From NCBI RefSeq assembly GCF_057098645.1, contig NZ_CM169472.1: 64,000 nucleotides of DNA; one strand, written 5' to 3'. Position numbers: made by a program. Positions 14,501 to 20,500 of this stretch are shown piece after piece (position 1 is the stretch's first letter; each line of letters starts with the position of its first letter).

Positions 14501-17500
14501 CGGAAGTCATTAATCAAAATATGTGCGCCATCCGGCAGCGCTTGCTGATGTAGTCGGATATGGCAGTTGGCATCCACATTGACGATTGCCAGCGAGTGAT
14601 CGCACAAACTCAGCAGCTGGTGGGTTATCTGCGAGGCATCACGCGGTAAGTCGATTAAAATCCACTGGTAACGCCCGCTGGCTTTTAGTTGCTGTAAGCC
14701 GGAGCAAATATCGCTCAGGCGGCGACGGTGGTCTTTTCTTTACAGCAAAATGCGCAAATCGAGCCACTGGCCCGCAGCATTCATACCCTGCGTCGCCAGC
14801 GCGGTAGTGCGATGAAAATCCTCGTGCGGGAAAATACCGCTAGCCTGCGCGCCACCGATGAACGTTTGTTATTGGCCTGCGGTGCAAATATGGTTATTCC
14901 GTGGAATGCGCCACTCTCCCGTTGTCTGACGATGATCGAAAGCGTGCAAGGGCAGAAGTTTAGTCGCTATGTGCCGGAAGATATCACTACCTTGCTGTCA
15001 ATGACCCAGCCGCTCAAACTGCGTGGTTTCCAGAAGTGGGATGTGTTCTGTAATGCCGTCAACAACATGATGAATAACCCTCTATTACCTGCCCACGGTA
15101 AAGGCGTTCTGGTTGCCCTACGTCCGGTACCGGGTATCCGCGTTGAACAAGCCCTGACGCTGTGTCGCCCTAACCGTACCGGCGATATCATGACCATTGG
15201 CGGTAATCGGCTGGTGCTGTTTCTCTCATTCTGTCGGATTAACGATCTGGATACCGCGTTGAATCATATTTTCCCATTGCCTACTGGCGACATTTTCTCA
15301 AACCATATGGTCTGGTTTGAAGATGATCAAATCAGTGCCGAGCTGGTGCAGATGCGCCTGCTTGCCCCAGAACAATGGGGCATGCCGCTGCCTTTAACGC
15401 AAAGTTCTAAACCGGTCATCAATGCCGAGCACGATGGTCGCCACTGGCGACGAATACCAGAACCCATGCGACTATTAGATGATGCTGTGGAGCGCTCATC
15501 ATGATGACCATCAGCGATATCATTGAAATTATTGTCGTTTGCGCACTGATATTTTTCCCGCTGGGCTATCTGGCGCGGCACTCTTTGCGACGCATTCGCG
15601 ACACCTTACGTTTGTTCTTTGCTAAACCTCGTTATGTTAAACCGGCTGGGACGTTACGCCGCACGGAAAAAGCCAGGGCAACCAAAAAATGACTCAATTT
15701 ACGCAAAATACCGCCATGCCTTCTTCCCTCTGGCAATACTGGCGCGGCCTTTCCGGCTGGAACTTCTATTTTCTGGTTAAGTTCGGCCTGTTGTGGGCGG
15801 GATATCTTAACTTCCATCCGCTCCTCAATTTGGTGTTTGCCGCGTTTCTGCTGATGCCCATTCCGCGCTACAGCCTGCATCGCTTGCGCCACTGGATTGC
15901 CCTGCCGATCGGCTTTGCTTTGTTCTGGCATGACACCTGGTTGCCTGGCCCGGAAAGCATAATGAGCCAGGGTTCGCAGGTGGCGGGGTTCAGTACCGAT
16001 TATTTAATCGACCTTGTCACACGCTTTATTAACTGGCAGATGATTGGGGCCATTTTTGTTTTATTAGTGGCTTGGTTATTCCTGTCACAATGGATTCGCA
16101 TTACCGTTTTTGTGGTTGCCATACTGCTATGGCTGAACGTACTTACCCTGGCGGGACCAAGTTTCTCCTTGTGGCCAGCCGGACAACCGACGACCACTGT
16201 AACAACGACGGGTGGTAACGCAGCGGCAACCGTTGCGGCGACGGGTGGCGCACCGGTAGTGGGTGATATGCCCGCACAAACTGCACCGCCAACAACGGCG
16301 AACCTTAACGCCTGGCTGAATAATTTCTATAACGCGGAGGCGAAACGTAAATCGACCTTCCCGTCTTCGCTGCCCGCTGATGCTCAGCCATTTGAACTAC
16401 TGGTGATTAATATCTGTTCGCTTTCCTGGTCGGATATTGAAGCCGCCGGGTTGATGTCGCATCCGCTGTGGTCGCATTTCGATATTGAGTTCAAGAACTT
16501 TAACTCCGCCACCTCCTACAGTGGCCCGGCAGCGATCCGTTTACTGCGCGCCAGCTGCGGGCAGACTTCGCACACTAATCTGTATCAACCGGCAAATAAC
16601 GACTGCTATCTGTTTGATAACCTGTCGAAACTGGGCTTTACCCAGCACCTGATGATGGGACATAACGGCCAGTTCGGCGGTTTTTTGAAAGAAGTTCGCG
16701 AAAATGGCGGCATGCAGAGCGAATTGATGGATCAAACAAATCTGCCGGTTATTTTGCTGGGCTTTGATGGTTCGCCGGTTTATGACGATACCGCCGTGCT
16801 TAACCGCTGGCTGGACGTTACCGAAAAAGATAAAAACAGCCGTAGTGCCACGTTCTACAACACGCTTCCACTGCATGACGGCAACCATTATCCGGGCGTC
16901 AGCAAAACAGCGGATTACAAAGCGCGGGCGCAGAAATTCTTTGATGAACTGGACGCCTTCTTTACTGAACTGGAGAAATCGGGTCGTAAAGTGATGGTGG
17001 TCGTGGTGCCGGAACACGGCGGCGCGCTGAAGGGCGACAGAATGCAGGTATCTGGCCTACGTGATATCCCTAGCCCGTCTATCACCGACGTCCCCGTTGG
17101 GGTGAAATTCTTCGGCATGAAGGCACCACATCAGGGGGCACCGATTGTCATCGACCAACCGAGCAGCTTCCTGGCTATCTCCGATCTGGTGGTTCGCGTT
17201 CTTGATGGCAAGATTTTCACCGAAGACAATGTTGACTGGAAAAAACTCACCAGTGGGTTGCCACAAACAGCACCGGTCTCCGAGAACTCAAATGCAGTAG
17301 TTATTCAATACCAGGATAAACCGTACGTTCGACTGAACGGCGGCGACTGGGTGCCTTACCCGCAGTAAGCACGAAAAAGGCCGCAGAGTTTCACCCCTGT
17401 GGCCTGGTCCGGGCGCAAATTGCCATTACGGCAGCCTGACGCCCGCATGACACGTTACTTCCGTTTGTTCAGCCAGTTCACGATCATACTGGCAAGAATG

Positions 17501-20500
17501 CCAGCAATGACCGGAGCCGCTAAATCATGCCAGAAGGCCATGTCCAGCTCTGCGAGCGTCATATAGCCGCCTGTATTGTAATGACAACGTTTCGCGGCTA
17601 TTCTTGTATTGTTTGGATGCAAGAATGGCCCCCGTGGTGTTGTCAGGTGCATACCTGCAACGTGCGGGGGTTTTCTCTCTCCAGCAACCAATGCCACCAG
17701 GGATTAAGCCCCCGCAACATTGCGCCTCACCGGAACCCTTCCGGCTTGCCGCTAATTTTACGATTGCTTTTTACTGTCAGCACTCGGCAATCTTCCTCAT
17801 TGCGTGATGCCTTCCAGCTTAATTTCTTAATTTGCAATAGTTGCAGTTCATATCCGGGCTGACTCCAGACTGGTAGTGAAATGCGCAATTTTGTAGAATT
17901 GCGCCTCCTCGCGACCTCCCCAGTGAATCTGTTGCCTCATTTTTTACATACTGCGTATTCGACTTCTCCACCTGTTGCGCAAGAGAAACTGGGTTTATTC
18001 ATTTTTGCGAGGCCGACTTCTTTCTGGACAGGACTTTATGCAGCACAACACACTACCGAAACACGATCAGAAATTGCCGTTTACACGCTACGACTTCGGC
18101 TGGGTTTTATTATGCATAGGCATGGCGATTGGTGCCGGAACCGTGCTGATGCCAGTACAAATTGGCTTGAAGGGAATTTGGGTATTTATTACCGCAGCGA
18201 TCATTGCTTATCCTGCCACCTGGGTAGTGCAGGACATTTATTTAAAAACCCTTTCTGAAAGCGATTCCTGTAATGACTACACCGATATTATCAGTCATTA
18301 CCTGGGGAAGAACTGGGGAATTTTCCTCGGGGTTATCTACTTTTTGATGATTATCCACGGGATTTTTATCTACTCTCTCTCCGTGGTTTTCGACAGCGCC
18401 TCGTACCTGAAAACCTTCGGTTTAACCGATGCCGATCTTTCACAATCTCTACTTTATAAAGTCGCTATTTTCGCCGTACTGGTAGCGATTGCGTCTGGTG
18501 GTGAACGATTACTGTTTAAGATTTCTGGGCCAATGGTGGTGGTCAAAGTAGGGATTATTGTCGTGTTCGGTTTTGCGATGATCCCGCACTGGAATTTCGC
18601 CAATATAACCGCCTTCCCGCAAGCCTCAGTCTTTTTTCGCGATGTCCTGCTTACCATTCCATTTTGCTTCTTTTCTGCAGTATTTATTCAGGTACTTAAC
18701 CCAATGAATATTGCCTATCGTAAACGGGAAGCGGATAAAGTACTGGCAACCCGGCTCGCGCTGCGTACCCACCGAATTAGTTATATCACGCTCATCGCGG
18801 TGATACTGTTTTTTGCCTTTTCGTTTACCTTCTCAATTAGCCACGAAGAAGCCGTTTCTGCCTTTGAACAAAATATCTCGGCACTGGCACTGGCCGCGCA
18901 GGTGATCCCTGGGCATATCATTCATATCACCTCTACGGTGCTGAATATCTTTGCCGTACTGACCGCATTCTTTGGCATTTATCTCGGTTTCCACGAGGCC
19001 ATTAAAGGCATTATTCTCAATCTGTTAAGCCGAATTATTGATACCAAGAAAATTAACTCACGCGTGCTGACTCTGGCGATCTGCACTTTTATCGTCATTA
19101 CGTTGACGATTTGGGTTTCGTTTCGTGTATCGGTGCTGGTGTTCTTTCAGTTGGGAAGCCCGTTATATGGCATTGTGTCGTGCCTCATTCCGTTTTTCCT
19201 GATCTATAAAGTCGCACAACTGGAAAAACTTCGCGGATTTAAAGCCTGGCTGATTCTGCTTTACGGCGTTTTGCTATGCTTGTCGCCACTGTTGAAGCTG
19301 ATTGAGTAAACCGGAGCGCATGGCCCCGGTTTTGTGAGTTAACGCTGCGGATTTTCATCCTGATCAACAGCAAAACAAGCTACCAGTTGACCGCCGTAGT
19401 CTTTTAGCTGCGGCTGCAACTGGGTGCAGGGGCCGAAGCGCCGACGACAGCGGGCGTTAAACGCGCAGCCCGGCGGTGGATTCAGCGGGCTTGGCAGTTC
19501 ACCGGTGAGTTTGATGCGCTCGCGGCGATCGTCCGGATTCAGGCGCGGCGTCGCGGAAAGTAGCGCCTGAGTGTACGGATGGCGCGGGTTATTGAAGATT
19601 TGGTCTTTCGTTCCCTTCTCCACGCAGCGGCCCAGGTACATCACCATCACTTCATCAGCAATGTGCTCCACCACCGACAGGTCGTGGGAGATGAAGACAT
19701 AAGAAAGCCCCAGTTCCTGCTGCAAATCCATCATCAGGTTGAGCACCTGTGCACGCACCGAGACGTCCAGCGCGGAGACCGGTTCATCGGCAATCACCAC
19801 GTCCGGGTCGAGCATCAGACCACGGGCAATAGCGATACGCTGACGTTGTCCGCCGGAGAACATATGCGGATAGCGGTCATAGTGCTCGGTTTTCAGGCCG
19901 ACTTTCGCCATCATCGACAGGGCTTTTTCCCGACGCTGTTCTTTGCTTAAACTGGTGTTGATCAGCAGCGGCTCTTCAAGAATTTGCCCGACTTTTTTAC
20001 GCGGATTCAGCGAACCGTAAGGGTTCTGGAAGACAATCTGGATTTTCTGCCGACGCAGCTTCTGCGCCTGCGGATCGTGCTTAAGCAGATCCTGCCCCTG
20101 GTAATACAGCTCGCCGCCGGTGGGCGTTTCAATCATCGTCAGCAACCGACCGAGGGTCGATTTACCGCAGCCAGATTCACCTACTACCGCCAGCGTTTTG
20201 CCACGTTCAAGGTTAAACGAAACGCCGTCCAGCGCCTTCACCAGACGTTCCGGAGCGAACATACCTTTCTTCACCGGATAATGTTTTTTCAGGTCGATAG
20301 CCTGCAACAGCGGTTGTTGCGAGGTGGCCTCTTGCGTACTCATAGTGTCGGCCTCCCGGCATCATCAAGTGGGTAATGGCATTTGGACTGACGCCCGTCA
20401 GCGAGCATATTCAGCGCCGGTTCTTCAGCGCGACATCTGTCAGTGGCATAGGGGCAGCGCGGGTTAAGCAGGCAGCCGTTCGGGCGGTCGTACTTGCCGG

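What the first reader, a model, noticed from the sequence alone, without database searches (positions are those of the whole stretch)
17369..18037. Ldr/Rdl-type type I toxin-antitoxin locus between bcsG and yhjV
A 35-codon ORF (MTLAELDMAFWHDLAAPVIAGILASMIVNWLNKRK) has the Ldr toxin pattern. The antisense Rdl RNA should lie on the + strand upstream of the ORF (roughly 17600-17800), but I cannot place its ends from sequence alone. The peptide differs at several positions from K-12 LdrD as I recall it.
Basis: partly seen in the sequence, partly recalled or inferred. Interest (0 to 1): 0.2.

Follow-up and report, generated by a model that had tools for sequence, protein, structure and literature searches.

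The report
Known ldrD/rdlD toxin-antitoxin locus
This is the well-known E. coli ldrD/rdlD locus, a tiny toxic membrane peptide kept silent by a small antisense RNA, present here as the E. coli O145:H28 allele, so it is ordinary apart from two small lineage-specific differences.

Summary
The observation and the interpretation both hold. The window is E. coli O145:H28 chromosome. Region 17369-18037 is the whole bcsG-yhjV gap and aligns with the K-12 ldrD/rdlD locus without indels at 98% identity.

- **Toxin:** the 35-codon ORF (17455-17562, minus strand) is a full-length Ldr toxin (Pfam PF13940, 90.2 bits, cut-off 27). It differs from K-12 LdrD at two residues (F3L, G7D), not "several".
- **Antitoxin:** RdlD lies at 17611-17676 on the plus strand (Rfam RF01813, 81.7 bits, cut-off 50). 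It is opposite the ldrD 5' UTR and starts 48 nt upstream of the start codon.

Two allele features go beyond K-12:
- G7D occurs only in 26 O145:H28-type records out of 5,426 genomes.
- The single-stranded 5' tail of RdlD differs from K-12 at 9 of 21 bases. It is identical to an internal unit of the 483-bp tandem LDR-D arrays that other E. coli carry at this site.

This tail region is the polymorphism hotspot of the unit. The likely mechanism is type I toxin-antitoxin control: RdlD pairs with the ldrD leader and blocks translation. How it blocks translation is unresolved even in K-12.

Verdict: already known, low interest.

The parts
17371..17853 (.). One LDR-D long direct repeat unit of about 483 bp. 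It is single-copy here; other E. coli carry 2-4 tandem units at this site.
   Evidence: Arrays with a 483-bp period lie between bcsG and yhjV in other genomes. The inter-unit spacer matches the window in register from 17371 on the left and to about 17770 on the right, with a partial match to about 17850.
17374..17404 (-). Intrinsic terminator of ldrD mRNA: hairpin 17379-17404 followed by a U-run at 17378-17374. It is shared back to back with bcsG. The window allele has one A.C mismatch in the stem (T at 17400; K-12 has C).
   Evidence: Terminator scan, folds, and the difference from K-12.
17412..17445 (-). 3' UTR element predicted to fold back onto the ldrD ribosome-binding region (17445-17419 pairs with 17588-17553) and onto the 5' GGCGCA (17417-17412 pairs with 17726-17721).
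   Evidence: Minimum-energy fold with z=-6.65. RNAalifold on 12 units keeps every pair, but none covaries, so this is conservation only.
17455..17562 (-). ldrD coding sequence, 35 aa plus stop. It carries the PXXXG motif (P17-G21) and W30 followed by the basic tail LNKRK. It is the G7D variant (base 17543).
   Evidence: The family signature is described in PMC7472228.
17567..17572 (-). Shine-Dalgarno-like AGGCGG, 4 nt upstream of the ldrD AUG.
   Evidence: Read directly from the sequence. It is invariant in 12 units.
17576..17604 (+). Candidate rdlD promoter: -35 TTGTAA, 17-nt spacer, -10 TATTCT, with +1 at 17611.
   Evidence: Relaxed scan scores 8/12; the strict scan missed it. The -10 hexamer is invariant in the 12-unit alignment and the -35 hexamer in the 5-unit alignment.
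17611..17676 (+). rdlD antisense antitoxin RNA, 66 nt: a single-stranded 5' tail (about nt 1-11 to 16) followed by a terminator stem-loop and UUUUCU.
   Evidence: Rfam RF01813, 81.7 bits. The K-12 annotation b4454 maps to 17611-17674. Fold of -30.1 kcal/mol, z=-3.2.
17605..17627 (.). Hypervariable patch covering the RdlD 5' tail, which is the loop and 5' arm of a hairpin in the ldrD leader. The O145 allele differs from K-12 at 9 of 21 bases and is identical to an internal unit of arrays in other strains.
17563..17747 (-). ldrD 5' UTR. The 5' end is inferred, not mapped. It contains the RdlD target (17676-17611).
   Evidence: A -10-like TAAAAT at 17760-17755 is conserved as TAGAAT or TAGTAT in other units. 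A weak end-to-end match to the hok leader model RF01794 covers 17713-17560 (30.8 bits, below the gathering score of 59).
17620..17633 (-). Candidate leader-ORF (ldrX-type) initiation site: GGGGG (17633-17629), 6 nt, then UUG (17622-17620). It lies inside the RdlD target.
   Evidence: CAAGA and GCCCCCG are invariant in the 30 units that the search pattern captured, a pattern that itself required both motifs. The ldrX hypothesis is described in PMC4147584. This assignment is inference.

Best explanation
This is the chromosomal ldrD/rdlD type I toxin-antitoxin module (the LDR-D repeat) of E. coli, in its O145:H28 allele. The minus strand makes a roughly 375-nt ldrD mRNA (about 17747 to 17372) that encodes the 35-residue inner-membrane toxin LdrD. 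The plus strand makes the 66-nt RdlD RNA (17611-17676), which is perfectly complementary to the ldrD leader from 49 to 114 nt upstream of the AUG.

The likely mechanism is as follows. The single-stranded 5' tail of RdlD contacts a hairpin loop in the leader, the duplex extends, and LdrD synthesis is blocked. RdlD does not cover the ldrD ribosome-binding site, so the block must be indirect. The most likely route is occlusion of an upstream leader-ORF start (GGGGG-N6-UUG at 17633-17620) to which ldrD translation is coupled. RNase III cleavage of the duplex would contribute. A predicted fold-back of the 3' UTR onto the ldrD ribosome-binding site would keep the full-length mRNA inert.

What is shown here: the identity, position and intactness of every sequence element. 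What is shown elsewhere, in K-12 only: the toxicity of LdrD, repression by RdlD, and the RNase III-dependent double-stranded RNA. What is inferred: the mRNA 5' end, the leader-ORF coupling and the fold-back.
For: - The region is 100% identical to 26 O145-type chromosomes, where the ORF is annotated ldrD between bcsG and yhjV.
- It aligns with the K-12 ldrD/rdlD locus without indels at 98% identity.
- Pfam Ldr_toxin scores 90.2 bits. The peptide is 33/35 identical to PDB 5LBJ, LdrD.
- Rfam rdlD scores 81.7 bits with a full-length match. RdlD folds as a tail plus terminator hairpin.
- The rdlD promoter hexamers, the ldrD Shine-Dalgarno sequence and AUG, and both terminators are present and conserved across the units compared.
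- The putative mRNA folds far better than shuffled sequences (z=-6.65). It pairs the 3' UTR with the ribosome-binding region, and these pairs are invariant in 12 units whose coding regions have diverged.
- Literature: LdrD overproduction is toxic and RdlD co-expression relieves it. RdlD overlaps the 5' UTR, not the ribosome-binding site. The ldrX coupling model has been proposed but not proven (PMC4147584; PMC8167048). An RNase III-dependent double-stranded RNA of about 21 nt lies within the ldrD/rdlD overlap (PMC7373196). The RdlD mechanism is described as 'currently unknown' (PMC8309996).
Against: - There are no expression data for this strain.
- The strict promoter scan found no sigma-70 site in the region. 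The rdlD promoter matches only 8/12, and no convincing -35 was found for ldrD.
- The long-range pairings show no covariation, because every pair is invariant. They are supported by conservation only.
- The leader-ORF frame relation is not conserved. It is in frame with ldrD in D-type units, but ends at a UGA overlapping the AUG in A-type units.
- G7D replaces a residue that is G or A in nearly all relatives. Toxin activity of this allele is therefore unproven.
Confidence: 0.95

Rival explanations
1. The locus has the sequence of ldrD/rdlD but is functionally attenuated or decaying in this lineage, because G7D weakens or abolishes toxicity. RdlD then has nothing to restrain.
For: - Position 7 is G in D-type and A in A-type Ldr peptides and in almost all representatives. 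D occurs in only one other, heavily diverged sequence.
- The exact D7-bearing 53-mer is confined to 26 O145-type records out of 5,426 genomes.
- The extracellular N-terminal part of LdrA is reported to matter for toxicity (PMC8309996).
- A second Ldr toxin in the same genome also carries a Gly-to-Asp change (G29D).
- The ldrD terminator stem has acquired an A.C mismatch.
Against: - The ORF, Shine-Dalgarno sequence, start codon, PXXXG motif, W30 and basic tail are all intact.
- RdlD and its promoter are intact.
- An extra acidic residue at the N-terminal, outward-facing end fits the predicted topology, which puts the basic C-terminus in the cytosol (PMC7472228).
- No frameshift, stop codon or IS insertion is present.
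Confidence: 0.12
2. RdlD controls ldrD mainly by triggering RNase III cleavage and decay of the mRNA, not by blocking translation of a leader ORF.
For: - An RNase III-dependent double-stranded RNA peak of about 21 nt lies within the overlap in K-12.
- Both RNAs are slightly stabilised in an rnc mutant (PMC7373196).
- The perfect 66-bp complementarity is a good RNase III substrate (inference).
Against: - The effects on half-life in the rnc mutant were described as slight.
- Reviews list the Ldr/Rdl mode of action as inhibition of protein synthesis.
- The invariant GGGGG-N6-UUG inside the target fits a translational mechanism.
Confidence: 0.2
3. The real product is a longer protein from an in-frame upstream start: 55 aa from UUG at 17622, 65 aa from AUG at 17652, or the 80-aa GTG ORF 17455-17697.
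For: - No stop codon separates these starts from ldrD in D-type units.
- Automatic gene callers have produced such extended proteins (P0004, P0009, P0018, P0028).
Against: - In A-type units a 1-nt deletion puts the upstream frame out of register. In one D-type unit a 4-nt insertion does the same.
- The upstream codons fall in the most variable part of the unit.
- The Pfam model and the solved LdrD peptide are both 35 aa.
Confidence: 0.03

Closest known systems
E. coli K-12 ldrD/rdlD (LDR-D; b4453/b4454)
   Same: Same site between bcsG and yhjV, same orientation and same spacing, with no indels and 98% DNA identity. The toxin is 33/35 identical. The RdlD stem-loop, terminator and promoter hexamers are identical.
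   Different: The toxin has L3, the common E. coli allele (K-12's F3 is the unusual one), and D7, which is specific to the O145:H28 lineage. The RdlD 5' tail reads GUUUGGAUGCAAGAAUG against K-12 GUCUAGAGUCAAGAUUA. There are 9 differences in 21 bases once the 3 bases just upstream are included. rdlD is not annotated in the O145 RefSeq record.
Tandem LDR-D arrays at bcsG-yhjV in other E. coli (for example PK5086 with 4 units and RM13322 with 3 units)
   Same: Same 483-bp unit. The window's RdlD tail and the bases just upstream are identical to unit 3 of PK5086 and unit 2 of RM13322.
   Different: The window holds a single unit. Its flanks match the O157:H7 single unit, and 11 of its 13 differences from O157 fall within 17575-17627. 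It therefore looks like an O157-type backbone carrying a short patch of internal-unit type. Gene conversion is inferred, not shown.
LDR-A/B/C (ldrABC/rdlABC, kdsA-chaA locus)
   Same: Same architecture, with the 5' UTR, 3' UTR and Rdl stem conserved. The O145 genome also has two such units.
   Different: The toxin is only partly identical (57% identity between LdrA and LdrD is reported in PMC8309996). The Rdl apical loop and tail differ. A 1-nt deletion changes the frame relation between the leader ORF and the toxin ORF.
hok/mok/sok
   Same: A divergent, overlapping cis-antisense RNA opposite a long 5' leader rather than the toxin ribosome-binding site. There is a proposed leader ORF and a predicted 3' fold-back. 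The leader gives a weak end-to-end match to RF01794 (30.8 bits). Reviews draw the same analogy.
   Different: The toxin family is unrelated (Ldr/Fst, not Hok). The RNA match is below the gathering score of 59. Fold-back and coupling are not demonstrated for ldr.
ibs/sib (paralogue discrimination by variable antisense recognition regions)
   Same: Tandemly repeated type I modules in one intergenic region (PMC2887945). Here the Rdl recognition tail is the polymorphism hotspot: 11 of 23 columns are variable against about 15% elsewhere, and 30 units carry 12 tail types.
   Different: Cognate-specific repression has not been tested for Rdl. That Sib RNAs discriminate their targets is my recollection of the literature and was not checked here.

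Membership tests
Ldr toxin family (Pfam PF13940; Fst/Ldr superfamily) | Full-length match to the 35-residue Ldr profile above the curated cut-off | tested here: met
   90.2 bits against a cut-off of 27, residues 1-35 on profile positions 1-35. The peptide is 33/35 identical to PDB 5LBJ LdrD.
Ldr toxin family (Pfam PF13940; Fst/Ldr superfamily) | Superfamily signature: a hydrophobic helix with a PXXXG motif, then a conserved Trp followed by a charged C-terminus | tested here: met
   P17-V-I-A-G21, and W30 followed by LNKRK. The signature is as described in PMC7472228 and PMC2887945.
Ldr toxin family (Pfam PF13940; Fst/Ldr superfamily) | Overexpression is toxic (growth arrest, nucleoid condensation) | not testable with these tools
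   This is shown only for K-12 LdrD and LdrA. The G7D allele has not been tested.
RdlD antitoxin RNA (Rfam RF01813) | Covariance-model match above the gathering score over the full model | tested here: met
   81.7 bits against 50, model positions 1-66 of 66, E=4.7e-17. It is also found in the whole-window scan.
RdlD antitoxin RNA (Rfam RF01813) | Encoded antisense to the 5' UTR of the cognate ldr mRNA, not overlapping the ribosome-binding site or start codon | tested here: met
   RdlD spans 17611-17676 (+) and the ldrD AUG is at 17562-17560 (-), leaving a 48-nt gap. The geometry is the same as in K-12.
RdlD antitoxin RNA (Rfam RF01813) | Own promoter and intrinsic terminator | tested here: inconclusive
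   The terminator is found. The promoter is only an 8/12 consensus match and was missed by the strict scan, but the -10 hexamer is invariant in 12 units, the -35 hexamer in 5 units, and the spacing to +1 is correct.
Type I toxin-antitoxin system | The antisense RNA represses toxin synthesis | not testable with these tools
   This is shown for K-12 ldrD/rdlD in the literature and inferred here from sequence conservation.
LDR-D locus (orthology with K-12 b4453/b4454) | Conserved synteny between bcsG and yhjV and a collinear alignment | tested here: met
hok/sok family (Rfam RF01794) | Covariance-model match above the gathering score | tested here: not met
   30.8 bits against a gathering score of 59 at 17713-17560 (-). 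This is a resemblance of organisation only. A true RF01794 match lies elsewhere in the window, at 43493-43648.

The most novel reading that the evidence does not exclude
The RdlD 5' tail and the leader-hairpin loop it targets (17605-17627) form a specificity cassette that diversifies and is exchanged among LDR-D units, so that each antitoxin controls only its own toxin mRNA. On this reading, O145:H28 carries a recombinant single unit with an internal-array-type cassette on an O157-type backbone. It also carries Gly-to-Asp changes in two of its three Ldr toxins, which would point to lineage-specific tuning or attenuation of Ldr toxicity.
Probability: 0.2. Interest if true: 0.3.

Novelty: already known. 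Interest (0 to 1): 0.1.

Why it matters
It matters little beyond correct annotation. The locus is the textbook chromosomal type I toxin-antitoxin pair ldrD/rdlD. Practically, rdlD can be added to the O145:H28 annotation at 17611-17676, because the RefSeq record lists only ldrD. The one feature with some research value is population-level. The antitoxin's recognition tail is the most polymorphic part of the repeat and differs between tandem copies. That makes Ldr/Rdl a possible natural system for studying how duplicated antisense-controlled toxins avoid or exploit cross-talk. The G7D toxin allele is a ready-made natural variant for structure-function tests on the LdrD N-terminus.

Tried and rejected
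- The strict sigma-70 scan of 17300-18100 found no promoter. A relaxed scan was needed to recover the rdlD promoter, and it found no convincing -35 for ldrD. The ldrD mRNA 5' end at about 17747 is therefore inferred from a conserved -10-like hexamer only.
- NCBIfam has no model that matches the peptide.
The exhaustive representative search was used instead.
- The Kawano 2012 review could not be retrieved by DOI, and the primary papers are not in the library (Kawano et al. 2002; Gerdes & Wagner 2007). The exact definition of ldrX and the mapped ldrD 5' end could therefore not be checked.
- A covariation test of the predicted 5'-3' and 3'UTR-to-ribosome-binding-site pairings on 12 units found only 1 compensatory pair among 106, and none in the long-range helices. 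The fold-back is left as a prediction.
- The idea that the 80-aa in-frame ORF (17455-17697) is a real gene was rejected, because the frame is broken in paralogous units.
- The weak RF01794 hit on the ldrD leader was considered as evidence of hok homology and rejected as below threshold.

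
Full report
**What is there.** Region 17369-18037 is the complete gap between bcsG (15689-17368, +) and yhjV (ATG at 18038, +). The 801 bases around it are 100% identical to 26 complete E. coli chromosomes. Most of these are named O145:H28 or O145. In them the ORF is annotated 'ldrD: type I toxin-antitoxin system toxin Ldr family protein'. Nearly every one of the 5,426 complete E. coli genomes has the locus. Against K-12 MG1655 the 672-base gap aligns without a single indel at 98% identity. The K-12 features ldrD (b4453) and rdlD (b4454) map onto window 17455-17562 (-) and 17611-17674 (+).

**Toxin.**
- It matches Pfam PF13940 (Ldr_toxin) over all 35 positions, at 90.2 bits against a cut-off of 27.
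- It is 33/35 identical to the NMR-solved LdrD peptide, PDB 5LBJ.
- It carries the Fst/Ldr signature described in the literature: PXXXG inside the hydrophobic helix (P17...G21), and a Trp (W30) followed by a basic tail.
- It differs from K-12 LdrD at only two positions, F3L and G7D.
- L3 is the common E. coli state and K-12 is the odd one out: 14 of 30 sampled units encode MTLAELGMAF....
- D7 is unusual. The exact 53-mer that contains it is found in only 26 records, the same O145-type set.
- In a search of 1.84 billion representative proteins, position 7 is G or A in essentially all relatives.

**Antitoxin.** Rfam RF01813 (rdlD) matches 17611-17676 (+) at 81.7 bits (gathering score 50), covering the whole 66-position model.
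- The RNA folds as a single-stranded 5' tail followed by a long GC-rich hairpin and UUUUCU (-30.1 kcal/mol, z=-3.2), just like K-12 RdlD and RdlA.
- Upstream lie TTGTAA (17576-17581), a 17-nt spacer and TATTCT (17599-17604), with +1 six bases later.
- This is only an 8/12 consensus match and was missed by the strict scan. However, the -10 hexamer is invariant in 12 Ldr/Rdl units and the -35 hexamer in the 5 units aligned over it, drawn from D-type and A-type repeats.
- RdlD starts 48 nt upstream of the ldrD start codon, so it is antisense to the leader and not to the ribosome-binding site.
- rdlD is not annotated in the O145 RefSeq record.

**The toxin mRNA (partly inferred).**
- Downstream of ldrD is a hairpin (17379-17404) plus a U-run, which serves as the terminator.
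- Upstream, a -10-like TAAAAT (17760-17755) is conserved as TAGAAT or TAGTAT in other units, but no good -35 was found. I therefore place the 5' end near 17747 as an inference.
- The resulting 376-nt RNA folds much better than shuffled controls (z=-6.65).
- In that fold the 3' UTR (17445-17419) pairs with the ldrD Shine-Dalgarno sequence, AUG and first codons (17588-17553). A 5' GGCGCA (17726-17721) pairs with a 3' UGCGCC (17417-17412).
- RNAalifold on 12 units keeps all of these pairs. They never vary, so this is conservation without covariation.
- It is still notable that these untranslated segments are nearly invariant between D- and A-type units whose coding regions have diverged strongly.
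- The leader 17713-17560 gives a weak end-to-end match to the hok leader model RF01794 (30.8 bits, below the gathering score of 59). This is a resemblance of organisation, not membership.

**Mechanism.** In K-12, LdrD overproduction kills cells and RdlD co-expression relieves this. RdlD overlaps the 5' UTR only. Gerdes and Wagner proposed a leader ORF, ldrX, whose translation is coupled to ldrD and blocked by RdlD, but this remains unproven (PMC4147584; PMC8167048). A 2021 review still calls the mechanism unknown (PMC8309996). RNase III-dependent double-stranded RNA of about 21 nt has been captured within the overlap (PMC7373196). If that paper uses U00096.2 coordinates, which is my assumption, its cluster corresponds to RdlD nt 8-41, or window 17618-17651.
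- Inside the RdlD target there is a GGGGG (17633-17629), then 6 nt, then a UUG (17622-17620).
- The complementary CAAGA and GCCCCCG are invariant in all 30 sampled units, even though they are embedded in the most variable stretch. The pattern used to collect those units required both motifs, so this point rests partly on the 12-unit alignment.
- In A-type units this UUG opens a 20-codon ORF that ends at a UGA overlapping the ldr AUG, which is a classic coupling arrangement.
- In D-type units, including the window, one extra base puts the UUG in frame with ldrD with no intervening stop.
- I take this as modest support for a leader-ORF mechanism. The same bases are also constrained by the Rdl terminator stem, the rdl -10 hexamer and an mRNA hairpin (inverted repeat 17596-17609 / 17617-17630).

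**What is special about this allele.** Differences from K-12 are not spread evenly. Nine fall within 21 bases at 17607-17627, which covers the RdlD 5' tail and the three bases before it.
- Many E. coli carry 2-4 tandem 483-bp LDR-D units between bcsG and yhjV.
- The window's tail is identical to an internal unit (PK5086 unit 3, RM13322 unit 2). K-12 and O157:H7 carry the type of the unit nearest yhjV.
- Against the O157:H7 single unit, 11 of 13 differences lie in 17575-17627. This suggests a short conversion patch on an O157-like backbone, which is an inference.
- Across 23 distinct D-type units, 11 of 23 columns in 17605-17627 are variable, against about 15% in every other segment (Fisher p=4e-4). 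The 30 sampled units carry 12 tail types.
- In the mRNA this patch is the loop and 5' arm of a hairpin. It is therefore the place where an antisense tail would make first contact.
- The same O145 genome has two A-type units at kdsA-chaA with different tails.
- Whether the tails confer cognate-only control was not tested.

**Rivals.**
- *Decaying or attenuated locus.* This cannot be excluded, because G7D hits a conserved small residue and a second Ldr toxin of the genome has G29D. All other elements are intact.
- *N-terminally extended protein.* This is unlikely, because the frame is broken in paralogues.
- *RNase III decay as the main control.* This is possible, but the reported effects were slight.

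**Verdict.** This is the already known ldrD/rdlD type I toxin-antitoxin locus, here as a lineage-specific allele. Interest is low.

Noticed in passing
window 43493-43648 (-), next to 42783-43210 (+): A second type I toxin-antitoxin locus. It is a full Rfam RF01794 (hok/sok leader) match at 99.4 bits, immediately downstream of the cspA thermoregulator (501 bits). It is presumably the chromosomal hok/sok copy near cspA.
   Followed up: no
window 17883-17904: A perfect 8-bp inverted repeat, GCGCAATT-N6-AATTGCGC. It overlaps a promoter-like -10 TAGAAT (17894-17899) about 135 nt upstream of the yhjV start codon and is identical in K-12. It could be an operator for the yhjV promoter or a 5' hairpin.
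   Followed up: partly
L004, L005, L010-L015 (bcsG-yhjV gap of other E. coli): The same gap holds 2-4 tandem 483-bp LDR-D units in many strains. Each unit usually has a different RdlD 5' tail, but in one strain (LZSFT34) three units are identical.
   Followed up: yes
L009:12728-13371 (O145 RM9872, kdsA-chaA): The O145 genome has two LDR-A-type units. One toxin reads ...AAIVDWWRNRK, which is G29D relative to K-12 LdrB and lies inside the membrane helix. Two of the three Ldr toxins of this lineage therefore carry a Gly-to-Asp change.
   Followed up: partly
window 17560-17697 (-): In D-type units the upstream UUG (17622), AUG (17652) and GTG (17697) are all in frame with ldrD with no stop codon. 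This gives 55-, 65- and 80-aa extended ORFs, which automatic gene callers have sometimes reported.
   Followed up: yes
window 17400: T in this allele, against C in K-12 and 10 other units. The change puts an A.C mismatch in the ldrD terminator stem and a G.U pair in the plus-strand bcsG terminator.
   Followed up: no
window 25593-25673 (+) and 25766-25842 (-): naRNA4 (nucleoid-associated ncRNA 4, RF02564, 67.8 bits) lies next to a tRNA-Pro(CGG) gene.
   Followed up: no
L001 (NZ_CP028379.1 4278588-4279171): RefSeq annotates ldrD but no rdlD ncRNA in the O145 record. The locus-tag numbering skips two tags between ldrD and yhjV.
   Followed up: no
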